Virus record (IMG/VR): IMGVR_UViG_2547132415_000014
Coordinates: 1 to 21,879 of that record
Source of the DNA: a virus
Lineage: Duplodnaviria > Heunggongvirae > Uroviricota > Caudoviricetes
Direction: 5' to 3' (one strand)
Length of the DNA: 21,879 bases
Under the pieces are notes generated by a model that did no database searches, was not told the origin of the DNA, and saw only the letters and a list, made by a program, of their open reading frames with translations. Numbering within the stretch: position 1 is the stretch's first letter; every line of letters starts with the position of its first letter. A program made the position numbers and the translations under genes. This document shows positions 436-21,543 of this stretch, one piece after another.

Positions 436-510
436 GGGTCAGTCGTATAAAGGTCATTACGGAAGGCTGTTAACCTTCTTATCGTGGTTCGAGCCCACGC
501 TGTCCCGCCA
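436..510 (+). tRNA. tRNA-Asn (anticodon GTT), phage-encoded, divergent
   Basis: Hand-folded cloverleaf: acceptor 436-442/500-506 (6 of 7 pairs, one T:T mismatch), D-loop with GG, anticodon stem gaagg/ccttc perfect, loop ctGTTaa, T-arm cgtgg-ttcgagc-ccacg, discriminator G plus encoded CCA 508-510. Confidence 0.6.
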
Positions 511-3429: not shown

Positions 3430-3672
3430 ATGGCAGAGATTATTCCCATGACTGAAGAACAGAAATTCCAGTTAGAGATTTACAAGCTGGTCATGAACCA
3501 GAACGCAGCTGCAGAGGAAGCATTTCAGTTCATTGGCACTGACGAACTGAAGCTTGAGCTATTCAAAATTCACTTCCAGTCAGGTGGCGCTAATTCAGAT
3601 ATCACGACCCGTACAATCGAAGCGGTGCGTAAATCGAAGGAAGCGTTAGACCTGTTTACTACCGGAGCATAA
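3430..3672 (+). CDS. hypothetical small helical protein (80 aa)
   Basis: ORF with SD-like acggag upstream; stop 3 nt before the small terminase start, implying co-expression with the packaging genes. Confidence 0.55.
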   Translation: MAEIIPMTEEQKFQLEIYKLVMNQNAAAEEAFQFIGTDELKLELFKIHFQSGGANSDITTRTIEAVRKSKEALDLFTTGA

Positions 3673-3674
3673 AC

Positions 3675-4115
3675 ATGGCGCGCCCAACAAAGTATCAAGA
3701 GGCGTATGCCGAACAGGCACGCAAACTGTGCTTGCTGGGCTACACCGATGCAGAACTTGCTGATTTCTTTGAAGTCAGTGAGTCAACTATTAACAAGTGG
3801 AAGCTTGATTATCCTAAGTTTTCGGAGTCCATAAAAAAGGGTAAGGCCGTCGCTGATGCAGAAGTTAGTGACCGTCTTTATCAACGCGCTATGGGCTTTG
3901 TGGCTCCAGACATCGATATTCGTGTTATTGAAAACAGAATTGTCGAAACTCCGCTTGAGAAGTATTACCCGCCTGATACAACCGCCGCCATCTTCTGGCT
4001 TAAGAACCGACAGAAGGATAAATGGCGCGACAAGGTTGATCACGAGCTAACAGGCAAAGACGGCGGCGCAATCCAGATTGAAACATCACCGATGAGCACT
4101 CTATTCGGAAAATGA
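3675..4115 (+). CDS. terminase small subunit (Sf6 gp1-like)
   Basis: 146-aa product; C-terminus ELTGKDGGAIQIETSPMSTLFGK recalled as matching the Sf6-type small terminase; immediately precedes and overlaps the large terminase (ATGA). Confidence 0.85.
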   Translation: MARPTKYQEAYAEQARKLCLLGYTDAELADFFEVSESTINKWKLDYPKFSESIKKGKAVADAEVSDRLYQRAMGFVAPDIDIRVIENRIVETPLEKYYPPDTTAAIFWLKNRQKDKWRDKVDHELTGKDGGAIQIETSPMSTLFGK

Positions 4116-5527
4116 CCTCGATTAATCCTATCTTTGAACCGTTCATTGAGGCGCATCGCTACAAAGTCGCCAAAGGCGGTCGAGGTAGCGGTAAGTCATG
4201 GGCAATTGCGAGACTGCTTGTTGAAGCGGCGCGTCGTCAGCCAGTGCGTATTCTCTGCGCTCGTGAACTGCAAAACAGTATCAGCGATTCGGTAATCCGG
4301 TTGCTTGAAGACACTATCGAGCGTGAAGGGTATTCGGCTGAGTTTGAAATTCAGCGTTCCATGATTCGTCATCTCGGAACGAATGCCGAATTCATGTTCT
4401 ACGGCATCAAAAACAACCCGACAAAAATTAAATCGCTCGAAGGTATTGATATCTGCTGGGTGGAGGAAGCGGAAGCGGTAACGAAGGAATCGTGGGATAT
4501 TCTGATTCCAACCATCCGCAAGCCATTTTCCGAAATATGGGTGAGCTTCAACCCGAAAAACATCCTCGACGATACCTATCAGCGATTCGTTGTAAATCCT
4601 CCCGATGATATTTGTCTGCTGACAGTGAACTACACCGACAACCCGCATTTTCCTGAAGTTCTCCGTCTGGAGATGGAAGAGTGTAAACGCAGAAATCCGA
4701 CACTGTATCGTCACATCTGGCTTGGTGAGCCGGTAAGCGCAAGTGATATGGCAATCATCAAACGTGAATGGCTTGAAGCCGCAACCGATGCGCACAAGAA
4801 ACTCGGATGGAAAGCGAAAGGCGCTGTTGTTTCTGCACATGACCCGTCAGATACAGGGCCAGATGCTAAAGGTTACGCATCGCGTCACGGGTCGGTGGTT
4901 AAGCGCATTGCCGAAGGTCTACTGATGGACATCAACGAGGGTGCTGACTGGGCTACTTCGCTGGCGATTGAAGACGGCGCTGACCATTACCTGTGGGATG
5001 GTGATGGTGTTGGTGCCGGGCTACGCAGACAGACAACGGAAGCGTTCTCCGGCAAGAAAATCACCGCCACGATGTTCAAGGGCAGTGAATCGCCATTCGA
5101 TGAAGATGCTCCGTATCAGGCCGGAGCATGGGCTGATGAAGTCGTACATGGCGACAACGTTCGCACTATTGGCGATGTGTTCCGCAATAAGCGAGCGCAA
5201 TTCTATTACGCGCTGGCTGACAGGCTGTATCTGACATATCGGGCGGTTGTTCACGGTGAGTATGCAGACCCCGACGACATGCTGAGTTTCGACAAAGAAG
5301 CGATAGGCGAGAAGATGCTGGAGAAGCTGTTTGCAGAACTGACGCAGATTCAGCGCAAATTCAATAACAACGGGAAGCTGGAGCTTATGACTAAGGTCGA
5401 AATGAAGCAGAAGCTCGGTATTCCATCTCCTAACCTGGCTGATGCGCTGATGATGTGTATGCATTGCCCGGAGTCGGCTGCGCAACCCGACTATTCCAGT
5501 TACTCTATTCCTTGTGGTGTAGGTTGA
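4112..5527 (+). CDS. terminase large subunit (ATPase plus nuclease)
   Basis: 471 aa; Walker A-type motif KGGRGSGKS near the N-terminus; Walker B-like ICWVEE; position between small terminase and portal. Confidence 0.9.
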   Translation: MTSINPIFEPFIEAHRYKVAKGGRGSGKSWAIARLLVEAARRQPVRILCARELQNSISDSVIRLLEDTIEREGYSAEFEIQRSMIRHLGTNAEFMFYGIKNNPTKIKSLEGIDICWVEEAEAVTKESWDILIPTIRKPFSEIWVSFNPKNILDDTYQRFVVNPPDDICLLTVNYTDNPHFPEVLRLEMEECKRRNPTLYRHIWLGEPVSASDMAIIKREWLEAATDAHKKLGWKAKGAVVSAHDPSDTGPDAKGYASRHGSVVKRIAEGLLMDINEGADWATSLAIEDGADHYLWDGDGVGAGLRRQTTEAFSGKKITATMFKGSESPFDEDAPYQAGAWADEVVHGDNVRTIGDVFRNKRAQFYYALADRLYLTYRAVVHGEYADPDDMLSFDKEAIGEKMLEKLFAELTQIQRKFNNNGKLELMTKVEMKQKLGIPSPNLADALMMCMHCPESAAQPDYSSYSIPCGVG

Positions 5528-14439: not shown

Positions 14440-15915
14440 ATGGCTACGTGGCAACAGGGTATTAATTCTGGTGGTTTTCTGGCTGGCATCGGTACGCAAA
14501 ATGAGAATGCGCCAAAGGCAAGCGACATTAACGCAACGCTTGGTCTGATCCGCGAAAACAATGAATTGGCTCGATCAGGTGCAAATAACGTTGGTCTGAC
14601 CGCGTTACGTGGTCTGGCTGGAGTTGCTGATATTTATAAGCAGGAACAGCAACAGAAAGCTATTAGGGCGTTCAATAAGGTTCACGCTGATGCATGGGCT
14701 TCTGGTGATCCATCGGGACTATTTAAGTTTGCCAAGGAAAATCCAGCGTTTGTTGCACAGGCACAACAGGCGTTTTCCGGTCTTAATGAGCAGCAACGTA
14801 ACGATATGGGCGATTTAGCCATGAGGGCTAACGTCGCTCTTTCTCAGGGACCGGAAGCCTACAGTAAATTCATTACTGACAACAAGGACAGGTTAAATCG
14901 CGTTGGCGCTAATGCTGACTGGATGATTCAGACAGGTATTCAGAATCCAGAGCAGCTATCACACATGCTGACTACTATGTCTCTCGGTGCGCTTGGACCA
15001 GAAAAGGCGTTTGCTGTTCAGGACAAGATAGCTGGTCGTGAGATTGACCGAGGCAGACTGGCAGAGACAATCCGCAGCAATCAGGCCAGCGAAGCACTTC
15101 AGGCGAGAGGGCAGGATATTAGCCGAGCAAATGCGTTAACGTCAGCATATGCACCAACAGCCGCAATGCAGAATTACAATCAGTACGCGCAAATGTTAAA
15201 GGCGGATCCAGATGGTGCAGCGGCATTTGCGGCAGCGGCGGGAATTAATCCCAATGCTAAGAAATTACTTAAGGTTGAAACCAATCCTGATGGCTCGGTA
15301 ACTAAGTATTACACCGATGGCAGCGAGGAAGCAGGAAAACTAAACCAACCTATATCTGGTGATGGCATTAAACCAATTAGTTTGCCACAAGCGCAAAGCA
15401 TCATAGATAAGGCTAATGAGGGTTCCAAGAAGGCGGCAGGATTTGCTTTGCGATTAAAAGATTCAATGGACTCAATGAATCAGCTTAGTAAAAGCATTGA
15501 CCCTAAGCGAGTTGCATTAATAAATCGCTCTCTTGGTGATGGGACTATTGCAAATTTAAGCCTATCACCAGCGGAGCAGCAATATATGGTAAATGCGAGA
15601 GACGCCTTGTATGCAATTTTGCGCCCAGAAACAGGTGCAGCAATTACTCTGCCAGAGATGCAGGAGTATTCCAAAATGTACCTGCCTCAGCCCGGTGATT
15701 CCAAGGCTGCTACTGAAACAAAAATGCGAAAAATGCAGGGCCAATATAACTCATTACGTGGTCAGTCTGGTCGCGTTTATGATGCTTTGGTGGTTTCAAG
15801 TGCTGCAAATAGTCAACAACAGAGCAATAGCCAACAACCGACAAATACCCAACAGCAGCAGAGTCAATCCGGATCATATACCTCAAAATCAGGCATTCAA
15901 TTTACGGTGGAATGA
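14440..15915 (+). CDS. ejection protein (P22 gp20-like)
   Basis: 491 aa; second gene of the ejection block; Q/S-rich low-complexity C-terminal tail. Confidence 0.85.
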
Positions 15916-17753
15916 TGAAAGTAACTGCAAACGGTAAGACATTTACCTTCCCTGATGGTACGAGCACGGAAGATATTGGCACCGCCATTGATGAGTATTT
16001 TGCTGGTCAGGCTGTTCAGCAACAAACAGTTAATCAGGCCAATAATGAACCAGCACGTGAAGAACCATCATTGATGCAACAAGCTGGCGATTGGCTCACA
16101 GGTGGTCAAAGTGCAGGGCAAATTGCAGAGCAGGCTGGTCGTGGTCTGGTAAACATACCATTTGACGTATTGCAGGGTGGCGCAAGTCTGATTAATGCAA
16201 TCAGTCAGGGGCTTGGTGGGCCAAAAGTTTTGGATGATGTTTATCGTCCTGTAGATAAACCGACAGACCCATACGCACAAGCCGGTGAAACAATTGGTGG
16301 GTATTTAGTTCCAGGAGTTGGAACGGCAGGAAGCATGGCTATTGGATCGCTGGCAGAGGCCGCAAATCAGAAAGGCGATTTCGCACAAAATGCAGCTAAA
16401 AATGCCGGAGTTAACCTTGCCGCTCAGGGTGTTCTTTCCGCAGCAGCAAAGGGAATAGGGCGTGGAATAACGGCTATAAAAGGTGATATTGCGCCAGAAG
16501 TGGCGAAGAAAATTGCCACATCAGAATCGATGGGCGTGACACCAATGACATCTGATGTTATCCCGCCGAAAAATGCTTTCACTCGCGGCCTTACTCAGGA
16601 TGCCGAGGGGGCTTTGCTCGGGACGGGCTCAAAGCGAGCAGAGCAATATGCAACGCGTAGTAAGCTGGTAAGCAATTATTTTGACCGTTTTGGTGAGTAC
16701 AACCCTGATGATGTGGTGAAATCTCTGACCACCACGTTAAGGGGGCGGAAGGATGCTGCTGGCGCTGTTATCAATGACGTCACCAATAAAATGGGTAATG
16801 CCGCAGTTGATACTACAAATACCATGAATGCTCTGAATACAGCGATCGCAAGACAGGAACGGCTTGGGACTTCAGCCAATCAAAGCCTGCTTACATCCTT
16901 GCGTAACCTGCGTGAAGAATTAGCAAACCCTGCAACTGATTTGGATGTTACGTTTGATCTCTTGCGTCAGCACAGAACAGCATTTAGATCTAATGTTCAG
17001 GGAGATGCTATGGTCTTCCCCAACCAGGCAAAAGCAGCTACCAATATGGTAGAGAATGCAATGTCAAAAGACCTTCGTAACGCAGTTGCAAAAAACCTCG
17101 GTGCGTCAGACGCAGCAAAATACCTTAAAGCAAATTCCGATTATGCAAACGTTTATAATAAGGTGCTTAATAAAAACATTGCTAACAAGCTCAACAAGGC
17201 AAGCAGTGAAGCCAGTCCTGAACTTATAAATACTGTTGTATTAAGCAGAAAACCATCTGACGTGAAACGAATCTGGAGCGCATTGGATGATAAAGGGAAA
17301 GATGCTATGCGTGCAGCTTACGTCAGCAAAATAGCGGAAAAGGCCGGTGACTCTCCAGCCAAGTTCATCACTGAAGTTAATAAGCTGAAATCTCAGTCAG
17401 GCGGTGAAATTTACAACACTATTTTTTCTGGAAAGCACATGAAAGAGCTTGATTCTCTTCATGAAGTTCTAAAGCAAACAGCAAGGTCAGACACCGCAAA
17501 TGTAGTAACTCAGACGGGGCAATCGCAAGCCAACCGGATAAGGACGATTGGCGCAACTGCGACTCTTGGCGTATCAATGGGGCTTGAGGCTGGCTTTGGT
17601 GCAATGATGCGTTTGTATGAGTCTAAAGCAGCAAGAAACATGCTTCTCCGCCTTGCAAACGTCAAGCCTGGAACTCCGGCATATGAGCGAGCGTTAAATC
17701 AGGCTGCTAACGCCGTTCGCCCTCTCCTAACTAACGAAGCTACCAGGCAGTAG
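15912..17753 (+). CDS. ejection protein (P22 gp16-like)
   Basis: 613 aa beginning [38 protein letters not shown], recalled as P22 gp16-like; start overlaps the gp20 stop (the true start may be the second ATG at 15915). Confidence 0.9.
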
Positions 17754-17772
17754 AAATGAACGCCAAGGAAGG

Positions 17773-18102
17773 CTATTTAATTCTCTTTTCAATGGCTGCA
17801 ATTATTGCTTTTCCTGATGTTTCAGGAGATTTTGTAGCCATATAAGACGAAAAAATCATGTCGGTCATTCTTTCATAACTTACTATTTCCCACTTAGCCA
17901 ATGCATGGGACAGTTTGTAGTTGTCATCAGTTAGTGCCCTTATGGAATTTTTTAAGTGTTTATTCTCTTCTGTTAATCGCGCAATTTTTGTATCAATTTC
18001 ATGTGAGCGATCTAATTCCTTAACCTGTTTCTTGAGGGCAGCTAACCCTGCATATAGTACGCAACAGGATATCCCAAGAGCGAGTACGACTATTTCTAAC
18101 AC
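17773..18102 (-). CDS. small bitopic membrane protein: N-terminal TM helix plus coiled-coil domain (function unknown)
   Basis: GTG start at 18102 with a strong SD AAGGAGG 5 nt upstream (plus-strand cctcctt 18108-18114); product MLEIVVLALGISCCVLYAGLAAL then a heptad-like KKQVKELDRSHEIDTKIARLTEENKHLKNSIRAL; AT-rich. The 181-aa ATG-extended version looks like antisense junk. Confidence 0.6.
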   Translation of the reverse strand: MLEIVVLALGISCCVLYAGLAALKKQVKELDRSHEIDTKIARLTEENKHLKNSIRALTDDNYKLSHALAKWEIVSYERMTDMIFSSYMATKSPETSGKAIIAAIEKRIK

Positions 18103-18132
18103 ACCAACCTCCTTAGTTTTTCGCAGGATACC

Positions 18133-18498
18133 ATGAAAAAAGTTAACATTGGAAACGTACCAAAGATGCTCGTTCCGCTCTTTGAGAGCGGTACAATTGT
18201 GTTTTGTAGAGACTTTCCAGAATGGCAACGCCTGCATCAAAAACTTGGTGTGGACGTGCAGGACTCGGATGCCAACGGAGCGTCTCATACAATGAGCAGC
18301 GAGAATGGTGTTTTGCATGTGATAGGCGTGTTCAATGGCAAACTATCTACTATTGCCCATGAGTGCGCTCACATGGCATTCGATATCTGCTCAAGGGTCG
18401 GTGTTGATGTTGAACCAGGAAGAGCCAACGAGACTTACTGCTACTTAATGAGCAGGCTTGTTGAGTTCTGCGAGCGACATATCAAAAAGCCGGAGTGA
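18133..18498 (+). CDS. HExxH zincin-like small protein, possible minimal ImmA/IrrE-type metallopeptidase (function unknown)
   Basis: 121 aa; motif TIAHECAHMAF followed about 14-20 residues later by E...ANE...YLM, a pattern recalled from M78-type peptidases; SD-like agga 5 nt before the ATG. Start codon uncertain (internal Met alternatives exist). Confidence 0.55.
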   Translation: MKKVNIGNVPKMLVPLFESGTIVFCRDFPEWQRLHQKLGVDVQDSDANGASHTMSSENGVLHVIGVFNGKLSTIAHECAHMAFDICSRVGVDVEPGRANETYCYLMSRLVEFCERHIKKPE

Positions 18499-18506
18499 CC
18501 CGGCTT
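18487..18506. terminator. candidate bidirectional terminator hairpin (aagccgg-agtgac-ccggctt) between the HExxH gene and the YjzC-like gene
   Basis: 7-bp stem flanked by an A-run on one side and a T-rich stretch on the other, so it reads as a hairpin plus U-tract on both strands (better on the minus strand). Confidence 0.45.
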
Positions 18507-18511
18507 GATTA

Positions 18512-18691
18512 TTACTTTTTGCTGTCTGGAGTTCGCTTATCTAATACCCAGCCATGACCTGGCTTTGTTGTTGGTGGAAGCCTTTCGTTGTCCTTGACGG
18601 TGGCAAAATTGTCTTTCTTACCGCCGCGCGGGCCAACTTCTTGGTATATTCCGCCGTTTTTTCCTGTGTTTTCACCTGGTTTTTTCGCCAT
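18512..18691 (-). CDS. YjzC-like small protein (59 aa)
   Basis: ATG at 18691 preceded by gaggt; product MAKKPGENTGKNGGIYQEVGPRGG...LPPTTKPGHGWVL shows the KPGE/NGGIY/LPPT pattern recalled for the YjzC family; own promoter candidate upstream. Confidence 0.6.
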   Translation of the reverse strand: MAKKPGENTGKNGGIYQEVGPRGGKKDNFATVKDNERLPPTTKPGHGWVLDKRTPDSKK

Positions 18692-18727
18692 GATATACCT
18701 CAACATACACCCGTTATTGGGCGATTA

Positions 18728-18756
18728 AATATTGATCTCATTTTATAAGTAGTCAA
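18728..18756 (-). promoter_or_regulatory. candidate sigma70 promoter for the YjzC-like gene (-35 TTGACT, 17-bp spacer, -10 AATATT)
   Basis: Minus-strand TTGACT (plus 18751-18756) and AATATT (plus 18728-18733) with 17-bp spacing, about 35 nt upstream of the start codon and just downstream of the mnt terminator. Confidence 0.4.
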
Positions 18757-18783
18757 TATGGCCCAGGTAAATGCAAAAATTAA

Positions 18784-18805
18784 CCCACCGTCAGGTGGGT
18801 TTTTT
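18784..18805. terminator. bidirectional intrinsic terminator (cccacc-gtca-ggtggg) flanked by A5 upstream and T6 downstream
   Basis: Perfect 6-bp GC stem; T6 on the + strand (18800-18805) and ttaattttt on the - strand; the hairpin overlaps the mnt stop codon. Confidence 0.7.
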
Positions 18806-19042
18806 GTACAAATCCTTCAGCGTATCAAACACCATCTTCTTAACAAGTTCGGACTGCTCATCAGCGATGCGTTCCGCATCGTCTCGATAGCCTGAAATTT
18901 TGGATGGCTTTGATACAGCATCAGTCACTATCTGAACTAATTCTGAATTAAGAGAGCGGCCATTGGATTTGGCTCGCTGTTTTAGTTTTTCCTTTAATTC
19001 GTAAGGTAGCCGCAGATTAAATTGCGGGTCATCTCTTCCCAT
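18791..19042 (-). CDS. mnt: Mnt repressor (ribbon-helix-helix, Arc/Mnt family)
   Basis: 83-aa product MGRDDPQFNLRLPYELKEKLKQRAKSNGRSLNSELVQIVTDAV...DAERIADEQSELVKKMVFDTLKDLYKKPT, recalled as closely matching P22 Mnt; leftward orientation as in P22 immI. Confidence 0.9.
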   Translation of the reverse strand: MGRDDPQFNLRLPYELKEKLKQRAKSNGRSLNSELVQIVTDAVSKPSKISGYRDDAERIADEQSELVKKMVFDTLKDLYKKPT

Positions 19043-19101
19043 TCTTGATGCCTCGCTTTTGTGAGTGGATCGGCATCTTATTATCTGCTGGTTGCATCCT
19101 C

Positions 19102-19124
19102 AATAAGACCACAGTGGTCGTATT
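19102..19124. promoter_or_regulatory. candidate Mnt operator: near-perfect palindrome centred on 19113 (core GACCACAGTGGTC)
   Basis: 13-bp perfect palindrome 19107-19119 extended to about 21 bp with one mismatched pair; lies in the mnt-tailspike intergenic region, where O_mnt sits in P22. Confidence 0.55.
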
Positions 19125-19189
19125 TTTTTGATTAATAATGCATCACTGTGGCAATGATGCGGCGATTCCTTGTATCTGGAGCAAATTAA

Positions 19190-21247
19190 ATGACAGACAT
19201 TACAGCCAATGTTGTAGTGAGTATGCCTTCGCAACTCTTCACTATGGCTCGTTCTTTTAAAGCCGTAGCCAATGGCAAAATTTATATCGGTAAAATTGAC
19301 ACTGACCCAGTAAATCCTGAAAACCAGATTCAGGTTTGTGTGGAGAATGAAGACGGTTCTCACGTTCCTGTTTCGCAACCAATAATCATTAACGCTGCTG
19401 GATATCCGGTATATAACGGACAGATTGCCAAGTTCGTAACTGTGCAAGGCCATTCTATGGCTGTTTATGATGCGTATGGTGCACAGCAGTTCTATTTTCC
19501 TAATGTGCTGAAGTATGACCCGGATCAGTTAAGACAAGAGTTAGCAACAGAGGGTAATGAAATACTTGTTGACGACTCCCGTATTGCAGTTAAAAGTGTT
19601 CATGTAAATTCAAAACTTAGAACCCAGCACAATAAAAACGCAGAAATAATCACGCCAAATGATTTTATATCAAATTATGACATGATATCTGCAGCTATTA
19701 ACTCTGGAGATAGTGCCGCAGTATTTAATTCCAGGTATGCATTCACAATAACAGTTGGGGAATATGGTAATTTTAAATCTATTAGTGATGCTCTAAACTC
19801 AGCTGTTGCACTGCGTCCACTATGGAAAAATGGCATTGATTTTTGCATAATTAAAATTCTTTCCGGTTTTGTGCTCAATGAGCAAATAGAAATTTCAGCA
19901 GGATGTGACTTATCATGGATTAAAATAATATCAGAAGACTCAGTGGTTTTCTCTGATACCAGTTTGTTTACTAAAACTGTTAGGACGTATTACGAATACA
20001 AATATTTATTTTACATTTGCGATGCAGCAAAAAGTCCTGTATTTGCTATTCAGATTGAAGAAAATAGAGATGATAGCGATGTTTGTGCATTTATTGTAAC
20101 TCAAAAAGCTGAACTTAATTTCTATCCGTATTCAGGTGCTCGAAAGTTCTACGTTGGAATTCATGGTAGCTTTGGTGCAAAAATTAGTGCATATCATACC
20201 GGATGTGCTCCTGATGAGGAAAGTGTTGCTGCATATATGCCAGAAGGGTATTACGTATGTGATTTTTCTTATAGCAGATACTCTTCCCTGCAACTGGTAA
20301 ATAATGTCAAGGCATCAATGCCTGTAAGCAAGTTTGAACGGTGCACAGAGAGTACGGTTGCGTCAGTTAATTGTATTTATAATGTTAAAGCAGATTTTCA
20401 GGGGTCAAGTGCAAGCTATTGTTATATAGGATGGAATGTAAGAGATGGTTCAAATGTTAATATACGCGACCATAAAACTATACATTGCTCATATCGTGGA
20501 TTAACCTGCATTCATACAGCATATGTTGATGCAAGACGACATGACGTTGAAGAAAGTGATGCAGAAACAAGTGGTAAAGTCCTTGAACCAAATATTGAAA
20601 AAGGTTTTTATGGATGTGCACTTGGTGTGCGTATTGATGGTGCGGGTTGTGTTGATGTTGCTGGTAATGATATGCGCAATTGTGGAACAGCCGTTAATGC
20701 AGACACTGGTGCTGTTATTTCAGGAAAGGCTGTAGATATCTCAGGGGCTGAGTTGGGATTTGATTGCCATGCAGGAGCATCTGTTAATTTTCCAAGGCTA
20801 TGGGGTACAGATATAAAAAAATTAATGCACCTCCAAGATGGTGTAAGGTTTAACTCTAATATTTGTCATGTATTTGGTGCAAATCCCACAAAAGATATTA
20901 GATGGATTGATGTAGAGAGATCTGAAGCTTCTTTTATGAATGCAACGCTGGATGCAGATTCAGGATTTATTGCCGACTGTGGTAGTAGGATAACCATTGA
21001 AGGAAGTAAAGTTAAAAACCAAACAATAAGAAGTTTTTTTGGATCACATGTGGCTATAAATAATACTGTTGCTGACAGAACTTATTCAGATATAGCCGAT
21101 GTTCCGCAGTTGACTATTAGTGGAGGATCTTTTATTTCTGCTACAGGATATTCTAATTCTGACTCCAGCCCTCTTAGGTTGAGCACAACACGAAATACAC
21201 TTGGAGTTGGAGGAGCCATATTTTCAACCAATGGGGAAGTTTCATGA
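19190..21247 (+). CDS. tailspike protein: P22 gp9-type N-terminal head-binding domain fused to an unrelated beta-helix-like receptor-binding/depolymerase domain
   Basis: First ~110 aa ([34 protein letters not shown]...NVLKYDPDQ) recalled as P22 tailspike head-binding domain; the rest is unrelated, AT-rich, Cys-rich (~20 Cys) and Asn/Ser/Gly-rich. Confidence 0.9.
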
Positions 21248-21543
21248 TTAAGAGCATTGATGTCACTCCATTTCTTCACTCGCTTTGCGCTTTTGCGGCT
21301 CAGGTACTGGTTGGTATTTTTACCGGAAACTGGGCTTACGGTGCGATAGCCGGTTGTACGTTCTTCATTGCGCGTGAACACACCCAGGCAGAATATCGCT
21401 GGATAGAAAAGTTTGGGAAAGGGAAACGTGTCAACATGCCGTGGTGGGGAGGTTTTGATCCACGCGTGTGGGATGTGGGAAGTTTGTTGGATTTTTCTTT
21501 CCCAATTATCGGATGCTTATTGGTATGGATTCTTGCATCGTAG
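21244..21543 (+). CDS. small membrane protein (99 aa, two hydrophobic segments), translationally coupled to the tailspike
   Basis: ATG overlaps the tailspike stop (ATGA); hydrophobic segments [30 protein letters not shown] and [19 protein letters not shown]; occupies the slot between tailspike and att that holds conversion genes in P22. Confidence 0.5.

What the first reader, a model, noticed from the sequence alone, without database searches (positions are those of the whole stretch)
17754..19189. The immI slot is remodelled: orphan mnt plus three unrelated small genes, with arc/ant absent
In P22 the gp16-to-tailspike interval carries sieA, mnt, arc and ant. Here mnt and a palindromic operator are retained, but no arc or ant ORF exists between mnt and the tailspike start 147 bp away. 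Instead there is a bitopic TM plus coiled-coil protein (-), an HExxH zincin-like protein (+) and a YjzC-like protein (-), each on its own transcription unit and separated by two bidirectional terminators. Parts are AT-rich relative to the structural genes. This looks like a cargo hotspot carrying an uncharacterised exclusion, defence or antirepressor module in place of the classical antirepressor.
Basis: partly seen in the sequence, partly recalled or inferred. Interest (0 to 1): 0.72.

Follow-up and report, generated by a model that had tools for sequence, protein, structure and literature searches.

The report
Known P22-type "ant moron" mosaic variant
This stretch is an ordinary, already-described variant of the highly shuffled gene cluster that P22-like phages carry just before their tailspike gene, not a new module that replaced the antirepressor.

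Summary
The ORFs, terminators, palindrome and the 147-bp mnt–tailspike gap are real. The interval between gene 16 and the tailspike is the published "ant moron" of P22-like phages (PMC2629481).

Two of the "three unrelated genes" are native P22 genes. The HExxH protein is hkcC, 100% identical to an ORF in P22. The YjzC-like protein is orf59a, with one residue different. In P22 both sit beside arc and ant.

Only the 109-aa membrane and coiled-coil gene is a substitution. It replaces the sieA coding sequence exactly, under the identical P22 PsieA/RBS/GTG signals. It also co-occurs with arc/ant in other prophages.

Loss of arc–sar–ant with mnt kept is known from phages L, ST64T and ST104. The same four-gene order occurs in published phages SE1 and ST160 and in 5 of 80 IMG/VR loci.

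Two points are worth keeping:
- The orphan Mnt is a maintained lineage (dN/dS 0.11). It has an Arc-like recognition strand and its own operator, GACCACnGTGGTC, and was never found next to arc/ant.
- hkcC and orf59a travel as a convergent pair, including into unrelated siphovirus prophages.

All four proteins' functions remain inferred.

The parts
15912..17753 (+). Gene 16 homologue (ejection / DNA-transfer protein). It forms the left border of the variable interval.
   Evidence: 613-aa ORF. It aligns with P22 gp16 and ST160 gp16. Annotated as a DNA transfer protein in related records.
17773..18102 (-). 109-aa protein (phrog_8100) occupying the sieA slot. It has an N-terminal transmembrane helix (residues 4-22), a long coiled-coil helix and a conserved C-terminal segment. 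The start codon is GTG.
   Evidence: phrog_8100 E=1.4e-69. No Pfam hit above cutoff; weak DivIC, bZIP and ZapB matches. AlphaFold2 gives a single helix 2-90, pLDDT 85. No K/R before the transmembrane segment and 4 K/R after it. No BLASTP match to HK620 HkcB; hhalign probability 29%. Identical to WP_000890120 in 17 of 5426 E. coli genomes.
18103..18175 (-). Conserved expression signals for the slot gene: the region P22 annotates as PsieA (equivalent to window 18133-18163), the 5' UTR and the AAGGAGG ribosome-binding site. It overlaps the 5' end of hkcC on the other strand.
   Evidence: 76 nt up to and including the GTG are nearly identical in the window, P22, HK620 and ST160: the window and HK620 match throughout, and the others differ at two or three positions. 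The sequences diverge right after the start codon. PsieA annotation is in AF527608.
18133..18498 (+). hkcC: a 121-aa soluble mini zincin-like protein with HExxH plus a downstream Glu. It is co-oriented with the late operon.
   Evidence: 100% identical to an ORF in P22 and equal to HK620 hkcC. phrog_1365. H76, E77, H80 and E100 invariant in 59 homologues. 526 representative clusters in 1.84 billion proteins. AlphaFold2 pLDDT 88.6, pTM 0.83. Foldseek finds uncharacterised phage proteins, a few labelled SprT-like, metalloprotease or IrrE. No significant PDB match.
18487..18506 (.). Bidirectional hairpin terminator between the convergent hkcC and orf59a genes (P22 'tmnt', HK620 'tORF59A').
   Evidence: 8-pair stem found on both strands. 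Annotated in P22 and HK620 records.
18512..18691 (-). orf59a (HK620 hkcD): a 59-aa basic, Gly/Pro-rich protein with sub-threshold YjzC similarity.
   Evidence: One residue different from P22 orf59a. phrog_3202 E=7e-31. PF14168 E=1.3e-3, below cutoff. Homologues at 61-78% identity lie convergent to hkcC homologues in unrelated prophages.
18728..18756 (-). Promoter-like site upstream of orf59a (TTGACT-17-AATATT).
   Evidence: Consensus scan, 9 of 12 matches. The total number of sites in the region is not above the shuffle expectation, so this is weak evidence.
18782..18801 (.). Bidirectional hairpin terminator overlapping the 3' end of mnt (HK620 'tMNT').
   Evidence: 8-pair stem with T-rich tails on both strands. 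Annotated in HK620.
18791..19042 (-). mnt: an 83-aa ribbon-helix-helix repressor of the 'orphan', Gln6 type (N-terminus MGRDDPQFNLRL).
   Evidence: Pfam Arc and Repressor_Mnt domains. About 78-80% identical to P22-type Mnt (sequences). dN/dS 0.11 against ST160 mnt at dS 0.44. All 80 IMG/VR homologues are full length.
19075..19103 (-). Pmnt-equivalent promoter (TTGAGG-17-TAAGAT). The overlapping P22 Pant hexamers are degraded here (TCGGCA at 19070-19075, TGCATC at 19093-19098).
   Evidence: Read from the alignment to the annotated P22 Pant/Pmnt region. It scores 8 of 12 and so falls below the scan threshold. This is an inference from position.
19107..19119 (.). Mnt operator variant GACCACAGTGGTC. 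The P22 operator is GGTCCACGGTGGACC.
   Evidence: Unique in the window and in the whole ST160 genome. Conserved across the orphan loci while the sequence 3' of it diverges. It tracks the Gln6 Mnt in the samples and is never followed by arc.
19120..19142 (.). Junction sequence standing in place of about 1.3 kb of P22 (arc, sar, ant, t-ant).
   Evidence: P22 homology stops at 19042, or at the operator in the alignment, and resumes at 19143, equivalent to P22 locus position 4831.
19190..21247 (+). Tailspike gene. It forms the right border of the interval.
   Evidence: Head_binding PF09008 E=4e-66 over residues 1-113.

Best explanation
The interval is a mosaic variant of the 'ant moron' that P22-like phages carry between gene 16 and the tailspike gene. 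It is assembled from known modules.

(1) The backbone is P22-type: hkcC, orf59a and mnt, with the two hairpin terminators.

(2) The sieA coding sequence has been exchanged exactly, from the base after the GTG start to just before the stop, for a different 109-aa inner-membrane-anchored coiled-coil protein. This protein inherits P22's PsieA promoter, UTR, ribosome-binding site and start codon. I infer that it is made in the lysogen. The most likely role is envelope-level superinfection exclusion or another lysogenic-conversion function.

(3) arc, sar and ant are absent, as in the whole Gln6-type 'orphan Mnt' lineage. Pant is degraded. Pmnt and a specificity-shifted operator are kept, so Mnt most likely binds that single site, controls its own transcription unit and guards the approach to the tailspike gene (inferred).

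(4) hkcC encodes a small zincin-like, probably metal-dependent hydrolase. It is read with the late operon. orf59a is read in the opposite direction, and the two behave as a linked pair.

Shown: homology, module boundaries, conservation and distribution. Inferred: expression timing and every biochemical function.
For: - P22 matches window 18099-19042 (92.6% over the whole block, 98.4% over hkcC-orf59a) and again from 19143.
- P22 encodes an identical HkcC and an Orf59a with one residue changed.
- The literature lists hkcC and 59a as P22 ant-moron genes. It describes mnt-only morons in ST64T, ST104 and Para1 and in phage L.
- The whole four-gene block aligns at about 92% to SE1, ST160, SW-70, ST-32, ST-87 and ST-29.
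- IMG/VR surveys show free recombination of {SieA | HkcB | 109-aa | 161-aa | none} x {hkcC+orf59a | 139-aa | none} x {mnt only | mnt+arc+ant}. The exact arrangement appears in 5 of 80 loci.
- 107 of 5426 E. coli genomes share the mnt-tailspike junction, and 17 carry the 109-aa gene.
- The slot's upstream 76 nt are nearly identical (two or three differences at most) in four phages with three unrelated ORFs.
- SieA, the P22 occupant, is an inner-membrane injection blocker.
- Orphan mnt has dN/dS 0.11. Its operator is conserved while the flank varies.
- The hkcC/orf59a pair recurs in Klebsiella, Rosenbergiella and a metagenome contig.
Against: - No expression data exist for this locus. The promoter scan did not reach threshold for Pmnt or PsieA.
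- The 109-aa protein has no detectable similarity to SieA or HkcB. Its charge distribution puts most of it in the cytoplasm, so an exclusion role rests on position alone.
- HkcC has no significant match to a solved metalloprotease.
- 11 of 80 hkcC-anchored loci lack orf59a, so the pairing is not obligatory.
- No complete E. coli genome in the collection carries this exact combination.
Confidence: 0.85

Rival explanations
1. The three small genes form one new exclusion, defence or antirepressor module that was inserted in place of arc/ant.
For: All three genes lack assigned functions. The site is a recognised moron hotspot. The 109-aa gene is AT-rich.
Against: hkcC and orf59a coexist with arc/ant in P22. 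The 109-aa gene coexists with arc/ant in CFSAN004176 and in IMG/VR loci. The three genes assort independently. The arc/ant deletion lies on the other side of mnt from all three genes. There are no PADLOC matches.
Confidence: 0.05
2. Decaying remnant. The region is a degrading immI locus, and mnt and its palindrome are functionless relics awaiting deletion, as in HK620.
For: Pant hexamers are degraded. HK620 and E. coli PKF8 have lost most of mnt (window 18822-19142 is missing). Phage L lacks functional immI, and its authors raise this possibility.
Against: Orphan mnt has dN/dS 0.11 at dS 0.44. All 64 orphan copies sampled are full length. The operator half-sites are conserved in about 60 of 64 loci while the adjoining sequence differs between lineages. 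The same junction is present in 107 E. coli genomes.
Confidence: 0.1
3. The 109-aa protein is a lysis or cell-division factor. It could be an i-spanin-like or DivIC/FtsB-like bitopic coiled-coil protein rather than an exclusion protein.
For: Weak matches to DivIC (E=3.7e-3) and ZapB (E=0.02). The architecture, an N-terminal transmembrane segment plus a coiled coil, resembles FtsB/DivIC and Rz.
Against: All matches are below the curated cutoffs and are typical coiled-coil noise; GCN4 and Fos score equally. The gene is antisense to the late operon and sits behind PsieA. The positive-inside rule puts the coiled coil in the cytoplasm, opposite to FtsB and Rz. There is no o-spanin partner.
Confidence: 0.07

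Closest known systems
Ant morons of Salmonella phages SE1 and ST160 (also SW-70, ST-32, ST-87, ST-29)
   Same: The gene order is identical: gene 16, 109-aa gene(-), hkcC(+), orf59a(-), mnt(-), tailspike, with no arc or ant. The block is about 92% identical over 1.5 kb. The Gln6 Mnt and the GACCACnGTGGTC operator are the same.
   Different: The window's copy belongs to the E. coli-type sequence lineage (98-100% to E. coli prophage pieces). It has about 12 extra bases after the operator. The 109-aa protein is about 80% identical (19 nonsynonymous differences). The tailspike receptor domain and gene 16 type differ.
Phage P22 immI / ant moron (sieA, hkcC, orf59a, mnt, arc, sar, ant)
   Same: The position is the same. 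HkcC is identical and Orf59a nearly so. The PsieA/RBS/GTG signals are identical, both terminators are shared, mnt is homologous, and the Pmnt/operator layout is the same.
   Different: The sieA ORF is replaced. arc, sar, ant and t-ant (about 1.3 kb) are absent. Pant is degraded. Mnt has Gln6, Leu9 and Leu11 instead of His6, Phe9 and Met11. The operator half-site is GACCAC instead of GTCCAC.
Phage HK620 hkcB-hkcC-hkcD region
   Same: A bitopic 109-aa GTG-started gene sits in the same slot. hkcC and the orf59a equivalent are 98.8% identical, and the terminators are the same.
   Different: HK620 HkcB is not detectably homologous to the window's 109-aa protein. HK620 has lost all but about 30 bp of mnt.
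Phages L, ST64T and ST104 (mnt-only ant morons)
   Same: They keep an mnt homologue and lack sieA, arc and ant. The function of the orphan mnt is an acknowledged open question.
   Different: According to the papers, those phages carry only one further short gene (orf62 in L), not hkcC, orf59a and a slot gene. I did not align them directly.
P22 SieA (inner-membrane DNA-injection blocker)
   Same: Same locus, same promoter, ribosome-binding site and start codon, and a membrane protein.
   Different: SieA is a 164-aa protein that the literature describes as an inner-membrane protein with several predicted transmembrane helices and the FxRYPxEAxxFNK motif. The window protein has one transmembrane segment, a coiled coil, no similarity and no motif.

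Membership tests
P22-like 'ant moron' (variable interval between gene 16 and gene 9) | Lies between homologues of P22 gene 16 and the tailspike gene, inside the late operon | tested here: met
   Gene 16 homologue ends at 17753 and a tailspike with the Head_binding domain starts at 19190. Definition is in PMC2629481.
P22-like 'ant moron' (variable interval between gene 16 and gene 9) | Shares sequence with at least one other described ant moron | tested here: met
   92-99% nucleotide identity to the P22, HK620, SE1 and ST160 morons.
Functional immI region (mnt-arc-sar-ant) | arc repressor gene present | tested here: not met
   No Arc-like ORF apart from mnt itself.
Functional immI region (mnt-arc-sar-ant) | ant antirepressor gene present, with sar antisense RNA | tested here: not met
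   tblastn with P22 Ant finds nothing in the window. P22 positions about 3519-4830 have no counterpart.
Functional immI region (mnt-arc-sar-ant) | Pant promoter with consensus-like hexamers overlapping the arc operator | tested here: not met
   TTGACA/TATATT in P22 correspond to TCGGCA/TGCATC here. The arc operator is not conserved.
Mnt repressor (Arc/MetJ ribbon-helix-helix with Mnt tetramerisation tail) | N-terminal Arc-like RHH domain plus C-terminal Repressor_Mnt domain | tested here: met
   PF03869 at 78.8 bits and PF11423 at 66 bits, both above cutoff.
Mnt repressor (Arc/MetJ ribbon-helix-helix with Mnt tetramerisation tail) | P22 Mnt recognition residues (Arg2, His6, Asn8, Arg10; list recalled from the Sauer-laboratory literature, not verified here) and the P22 operator GGTCCACGGTGGACC | tested here: not met
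   His6 is Gln. The strand PQFNLRLP equals Arc's PQFNLRWP. The operator half-site is GACCAC. So this is a member of the family but of a different specificity class.
Mnt repressor (Arc/MetJ ribbon-helix-helix with Mnt tetramerisation tail) | Binds its operator and regulates transcription | not testable with these tools
   Only co-conservation of protein type and palindrome is available.
SieA superinfection-exclusion proteins (types A-C) | Sequence similarity to SieA, including the FxRYPxEAxxFNK motif, and several predicted transmembrane helices | tested here: not met
   Different PHROG families (8100 against 7745). One hydrophobic segment only. The motif is absent from the alignment.
SieA superinfection-exclusion proteins (types A-C) | Encoded between gene 16 and gene 9, antisense to the late operon, behind PsieA | tested here: met
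   The upstream 76 nt are nearly identical to P22, two bases differing.
SieA superinfection-exclusion proteins (types A-C) | Blocks DNA injection by P22-like phages | not testable with these tools
   Needs plating and injection assays like those in PMC10883804.
HK620 HkcB (phrog_5962) | Detectable sequence homology | tested here: not met
   BLASTP gives no alignment. hhalign probability is 29% over 36 coiled-coil columns. Only the size, architecture and slot are shared.
Zincin metallopeptidases (HExxH; SprT-like as nearest label) | Invariant HExxH on a helix, plus a downstream third ligand | tested here: met
   H76, E77, H80 and E100 are the only invariant columns in 59 homologues at 23-74% identity. 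They lie on predicted helices 71-88 and 100-116.
Zincin metallopeptidases (HExxH; SprT-like as nearest label) | Significant sequence or fold match to a curated or solved zincin | tested here: inconclusive
YjzC-like (PF14168) | Score above Pfam's gathering threshold | tested here: not met
   19.4 bits against a cutoff of 25, E=1.3e-3.
Known anti-phage defence systems (PADLOC-DB v2) | Any component model matched | tested here: not met
   Only a coiled-coil-type LmuB hit at E=1.4e-3 for the 109-aa protein. Nothing for the others.

The most novel reading that the evidence does not exclude
Three separate small novelties may lie inside this ordinary mosaic.

(a) The Gln6 'orphan' Mnt with an Arc-like recognition strand and its private operator may be a selectively maintained regulator with a new job. 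Its single operator sits about 70 bp before the tailspike start. It could gate or insulate transcription into the tailspike gene in the lysogen, rather than controlling an antirepressor.

(b) The PsieA-driven slot may be an ORF-precise cassette site. It holds non-homologous envelope proteins (SieA, HkcB, the 109-aa protein), and the 109-aa protein may be a new cytoplasm-facing blocker of DNA entry.

(c) hkcC and orf59a may be a mobile late-protease / prophage-small-protein pair with opposed expression. The protease might neutralise the small protein when the phage itself goes lytic.
Probability: 0.25. Interest if true: 0.5.

Novelty: already known. Interest (0 to 1): 0.15.

Why it matters
The region is a textbook-adjacent, published mosaic, and the "replacement of the antirepressor" is a misreading of P22's own gene content.

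The follow-up gives three testable leads in a well-developed genetic system:
- An answer to the question raised for phage L, whether orphan mnt is a relic or functional. Purifying selection and a co-conserved, specificity-shifted operator argue for function.
- A defined cassette site where unrelated envelope proteins are expressed from identical signals. That makes it a convenient place to look for new superinfection-exclusion proteins.
- A conserved pair of a small zincin-like protein and a 59-aa protein that moves between podovirus and siphovirus late operons.

Tried and rejected
- Profile searches of PDB sequences with the HkcC alignments found nothing below E=0.09.
- The 109-aa model is a single long helix, so no fold search was attempted on it. 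A profile search of PDB returned only leucine zippers.
- NCBIfam gave no names for the three small proteins, and PADLOC gave none.
- The search for related loci with the broad HkcC alignment failed because no stretch was conserved enough. With the narrow alignment it returned only copies at least 99% identical, so it did not reach distant contexts.
- The literature search for the RefSeq accessions found nothing. The search for the Mnt His6/operator literature found no usable open paper, so the list of residue contacts rests on my memory.
- I considered that the orphan Mnt protects the lysogen by repressing ant of incoming phages that carry the same operator. No contig in IMG/VR has the GACCAC-type operator followed by an arc start, against 99 contigs for the P22 type. 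This idea therefore lacks a target.
- I considered a second Mnt operator elsewhere. There is none in the window or in the full ST160 genome.
Full report
**What is in the sequence**

The window is the late region of a P22-like (Lederbergvirus) phage or prophage. Its structural genes are closest to E. coli phages CUS-3 and phiv205-1.

Between the gene 16 homologue (15912-17753) and the tailspike gene (19190-21247, Head_binding domain E=4e-66) lie four genes:
- A minus-strand gene at 17773-18102.
- A plus-strand gene at 18133-18498.
- A minus-strand gene at 18512-18691.
- mnt at 18791-19042 on the minus strand.

The mechanical ORF list shows the first gene as 181 aa. The extra 72 codons are merely the antisense of the next gene and are equally "open" in P22. 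The real start is the GTG at 18102, five bases after AAGGAGG, which gives 109 aa. RefSeq annotates the same protein this way in E. coli.

Other points of the observation hold:
- The gap holds no arc or ant ORF, and tblastn with P22 Arc and Ant finds nothing else in the window.
- Two hairpins at 18487-18506 and 18782-18801 score as terminators on both strands.
- The palindrome GACCACAGTGGTC at 19107-19119 is unique in the window, with 0.04 matches expected by chance.

It does not.

- Villafane et al. 2008 (PMC2629481) named this interval the "ant moron". They list sieA, hkcC, 59a, mnt, arc, sar and ant for P22, and report ten moron types in sixteen genomes.
- P22 DNA matches window 18099-19042 continuously, at 98.4% over the hkcC-orf59a part.
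- P22 encodes a protein 100% identical to the window's HExxH protein. This ORF is not annotated in record AF527608.
- P22's orf59a differs at one residue from the window's "YjzC-like" protein.

So two of the "three unrelated small genes" are native P22 genes that sit beside arc and ant in P22 itself. The arc-sar-ant loss lies on the other side of mnt from all three genes. P22 homology runs through mnt and the promoter/operator region, breaks right after the operator, and resumes at 19143, about 47 bp before the tailspike start.

**The one true substitution**

The 109-aa gene occupies the place of sieA.

- An alignment of the window, P22, HK620 and ST160 shows 76 nt upstream of the ORF nearly identical in all four, with two or three differences at most. 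This includes the region annotated as PsieA in P22, the ribosome-binding site and the GTG itself.
- The sequences diverge within two bases after the GTG.
- At the other end, homology to P22 resumes about ten bases before the stop.

This is an ORF-precise cassette exchange under constant expression signals.

Three unrelated ORFs were seen directly behind these identical signals:
- SieA, phrog_7745.
- HK620/CUS-3 HkcB, phrog_5962.
- The window's 109-aa protein, phrog_8100.

A 161-aa protein (phrog_6067) with a lipoprotein-type N-terminus sits next to gene 16 in other prophages, but I did not check its upstream region. A 139-aa lipoprotein-like protein replaces hkcC/orf59a in other loci.

The window protein and HkcB are both 109 aa, with an N-terminal transmembrane segment and a coiled coil. 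However, BLASTP finds no alignment, and hhalign gives 29% probability over 36 coiled-coil columns. They are analogues at best.

The 109-aa protein has these features:
- Its hydrophobic segment is residues 4-22, with no K/R before it and four in the 15 residues after it. By the positive-inside rule, the bulk of the protein faces the cytoplasm.
- AlphaFold2 gives one helix over residues 2-90 (pLDDT 85) plus a short C-terminal helix.
- The most conserved part is the C-terminal KWEIxSYExMTDMIFxSYxATxSPETSG segment.
- The family is small and enterobacterial.
- The gene is carried by 17 of 5426 complete E. coli genomes.

**The arrangement is not new**

- The whole 1.5-kb block aligns at about 92% to the published Salmonella phages SE1 and ST160, and to SW-70, ST-32, ST-87 and ST-29. 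ST160 has all four ORFs in the same order, although its record annotates only two of them.
- In an IMG/VR sample of 80 loci anchored on Mnt, 64 lack arc/ant and 5 have exactly the window's gene order. The modules combine freely.
- A second sample anchored on hkcC gives the same picture. It includes the 109-aa gene together with ant in 2 loci.
- E. coli CFSAN004176 has the 109-aa gene with mnt, arc and ant.
- The same mnt-tailspike junction is present in 107 of 5426 E. coli genomes, in one of them at 100% identity.
- No complete E. coli genome in the collection has this exact combination. That is what one expects of a freely recombining site.

mnt-only morons are described for ST64T, ST104 and Para1 and for phage L. 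The phage L authors ask whether that mnt is a relic or has a new function.

**The orphan Mnt**

The window's Mnt begins MGRDDPQFNLRLP. P22's begins MARDDPHFNFRMP, and P22 Arc has MPQFNLRWP. The recognition strand is thus Arc-like, with Gln in place of His6.

The operator differs symmetrically: AGACCAC-n-GTGGTC here, against GGTCCAC-G-GTGGACC in P22.

The association with the absence of arc/ant is strong:
- In the Mnt-anchored sample, all 64 Gln6-type genes lack arc/ant and carry the GACCAC-type palindrome. About four of them have a single-base variant.
- All 16 His6-type genes have arc/ant, and 12 of them show the P22-type operator in the stretch examined.
- The hkcC-anchored sample agrees.
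- Across IMG/VR, the GACCAC-type operator is never followed by a P22-type arc start (0 contigs). The P22-type operator is followed by one in 99 contigs.

Several results argue that the gene is functional:
- The central base of the operator varies freely, and the sequence just 3' of the operator differs between lineages, while the half-sites stay constant.
- Between the window and ST160, mnt has dN/dS 0.11 at dS 0.44.
- The operator is the only such site in the window and in the whole ST160 genome.

Reading the hexamers against P22's annotated promoters, Pant is degraded (TCGGCA/TGCATC). Pmnt keeps TTGAGG-17-TAAGAT with the operator three bases upstream of its -35 element, as in P22. This hexamer reading is my inference, since the consensus scan did not call Pmnt.

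The most economical reading is a functional repressor that binds one site. That site controls its own promoter, and it lies about 70 bp before the tailspike start. The epsilon34 paper notes that Mnt and Arc may influence read-through from the late operon into the tailspike gene.

**hkcC and orf59a**

HkcC belongs to a sizeable family of stand-alone proteins of about 110-140 aa. There are 526 representative clusters at E<=1e-3.

- Across 59 members at 23-74% identity, the only invariant columns are H76, E77, H80 and E100.
- The AlphaFold2 model is confident (pLDDT 88.6, pTM 0.83). It has a small sheet and two helices that carry these residues.
- Its structural neighbours are uncharacterised phage proteins, a few labelled SprT-like, metalloprotease or IrrE.
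- No solved structure matches significantly, and Pfam has no model for it.

"Zincin-like" is therefore a reasonable description of how it probably works. It is not a demonstrated family membership.

Orf59a is a 59-aa basic, Gly/Pro-rich protein whose YjzC match is below threshold.

The two genes are convergent, 13 bp apart, and share the hairpin. Their co-occurrence is as follows:
- They occur together in 29 of 29 Mnt-anchored loci that have either gene.
- 69 of 80 hkcC-anchored loci have orf59a.
- The same convergent pair, with a 59-aa partner at 61-78% identity, is found in siphovirus-type prophages of Klebsiella oxytoca and Rosenbergiella. There it lies between the tail-tube region and the tape-measure gene. 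It also occurs in a metagenome contig whose HkcC is only 43% identical.

They therefore behave as a mobile two-gene moron. Any functional coupling, such as a late protease acting on a prophage-expressed small protein, is speculation.

**Verdict**

The finding is a correct description of real ORFs and signals, attached to an interpretation that rests on an incomplete picture of P22. The locus is a known kind of mosaic, and the same arrangement is present in published genomes. Nothing indicates that the three genes form one module or stand in for the antirepressor. I score it low.

The residual interest lies in three side observations, none of which has been tested functionally:
- A maintained, specificity-shifted orphan Mnt.
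- An ORF-precise cassette slot behind PsieA.
- The mobile hkcC/orf59a pair.

Noticed in passing
window 18791-19042 and 19107-19119; loci L007-L086: The orphan Mnt's DNA-recognition strand (PQFNLRLP) matches Arc's (PQFNLRWP) rather than P22 Mnt's (PHFNFRMP). Its operator half-site is GACCAC instead of GTCCAC. This protein/operator type was never found next to arc/ant (64 of 64 and 25 of 25 loci; 0 against 99 contigs in pattern scans). dN/dS is 0.11.
   Followed up: yes
window 18133-18691; L089 544-1131, L092 4001-4556, L093 4001-4563: The hkcC(+)/orf59a(-) convergent pair also occurs inside the tail-gene clusters of siphovirus-type prophages (Klebsiella oxytoca, Rosenbergiella) and in a metagenome contig. 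This suggests a mobile two-gene moron. 11 of 80 hkcC-anchored loci lack orf59a.
   Followed up: partly
window 18100-18175 (minus strand): 76 nt of promoter, UTR, RBS and GTG are nearly identical in the window, P22, HK620 and ST160, although the ORFs that follow are unrelated. The sieA slot is exchanged exactly at ORF boundaries.
   Followed up: yes
L005 2276-2761(-) and L006 3462-3881(+): Two alternative genes at this site in E. coli prophages (161 aa, phrog_6067; 139 aa, phrog_6823) start with lipoprotein-type signal peptides (…LVGC, …LSGC). Together with SieA, HkcB and the 109-aa protein, most of the variable genes seen between gene 16 and mnt look like envelope proteins.
   Followed up: partly
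window 436-510 and 516-591: Two adjacent phage-borne tRNA genes near the left end of the window: tRNA-Asn (GTT) and tRNA-Thr (TGT).
   Followed up: no
window 19535-21247: Beyond the P22-type head-binding domain (aa 1-113), the tailspike has no Pfam match and is markedly AT-rich (GC 0.32-0.41). Phages JEP4 and Sf101 match the window through to about 21619, so the receptor-binding part is probably shared with them.
   Followed up: no
window 21244-21543: A 99-aa ORF overlaps the tailspike stop codon (ATGA). Its sequence looks hydrophobic. It matches phrog_1443 (unknown function, E=9e-54) and has no Pfam, NCBIfam or PADLOC match.
   Followed up: no
L002 / NC_014900 (ST160), AF527608 (P22), phrog_795: Annotation problems in public records. 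Mnt is labelled 'partition protein ATPase' in RefSeq ST160/SE1 and in phrog_795. P22 record AF527608 does not annotate hkcC. The ST160 record does not annotate the 109-aa gene or orf59a.
   Followed up: partly
L088 (CUS-3) 4006-4535: CUS-3, the closest relative for the structural genes, has a quite different moron. It carries hkcB, two unknown genes, two tandem mnt-like genes (one P22-type, one divergent) and ant. An additional small RHH-like ORF appears in the mnt-ant spacer.
   Followed up: no
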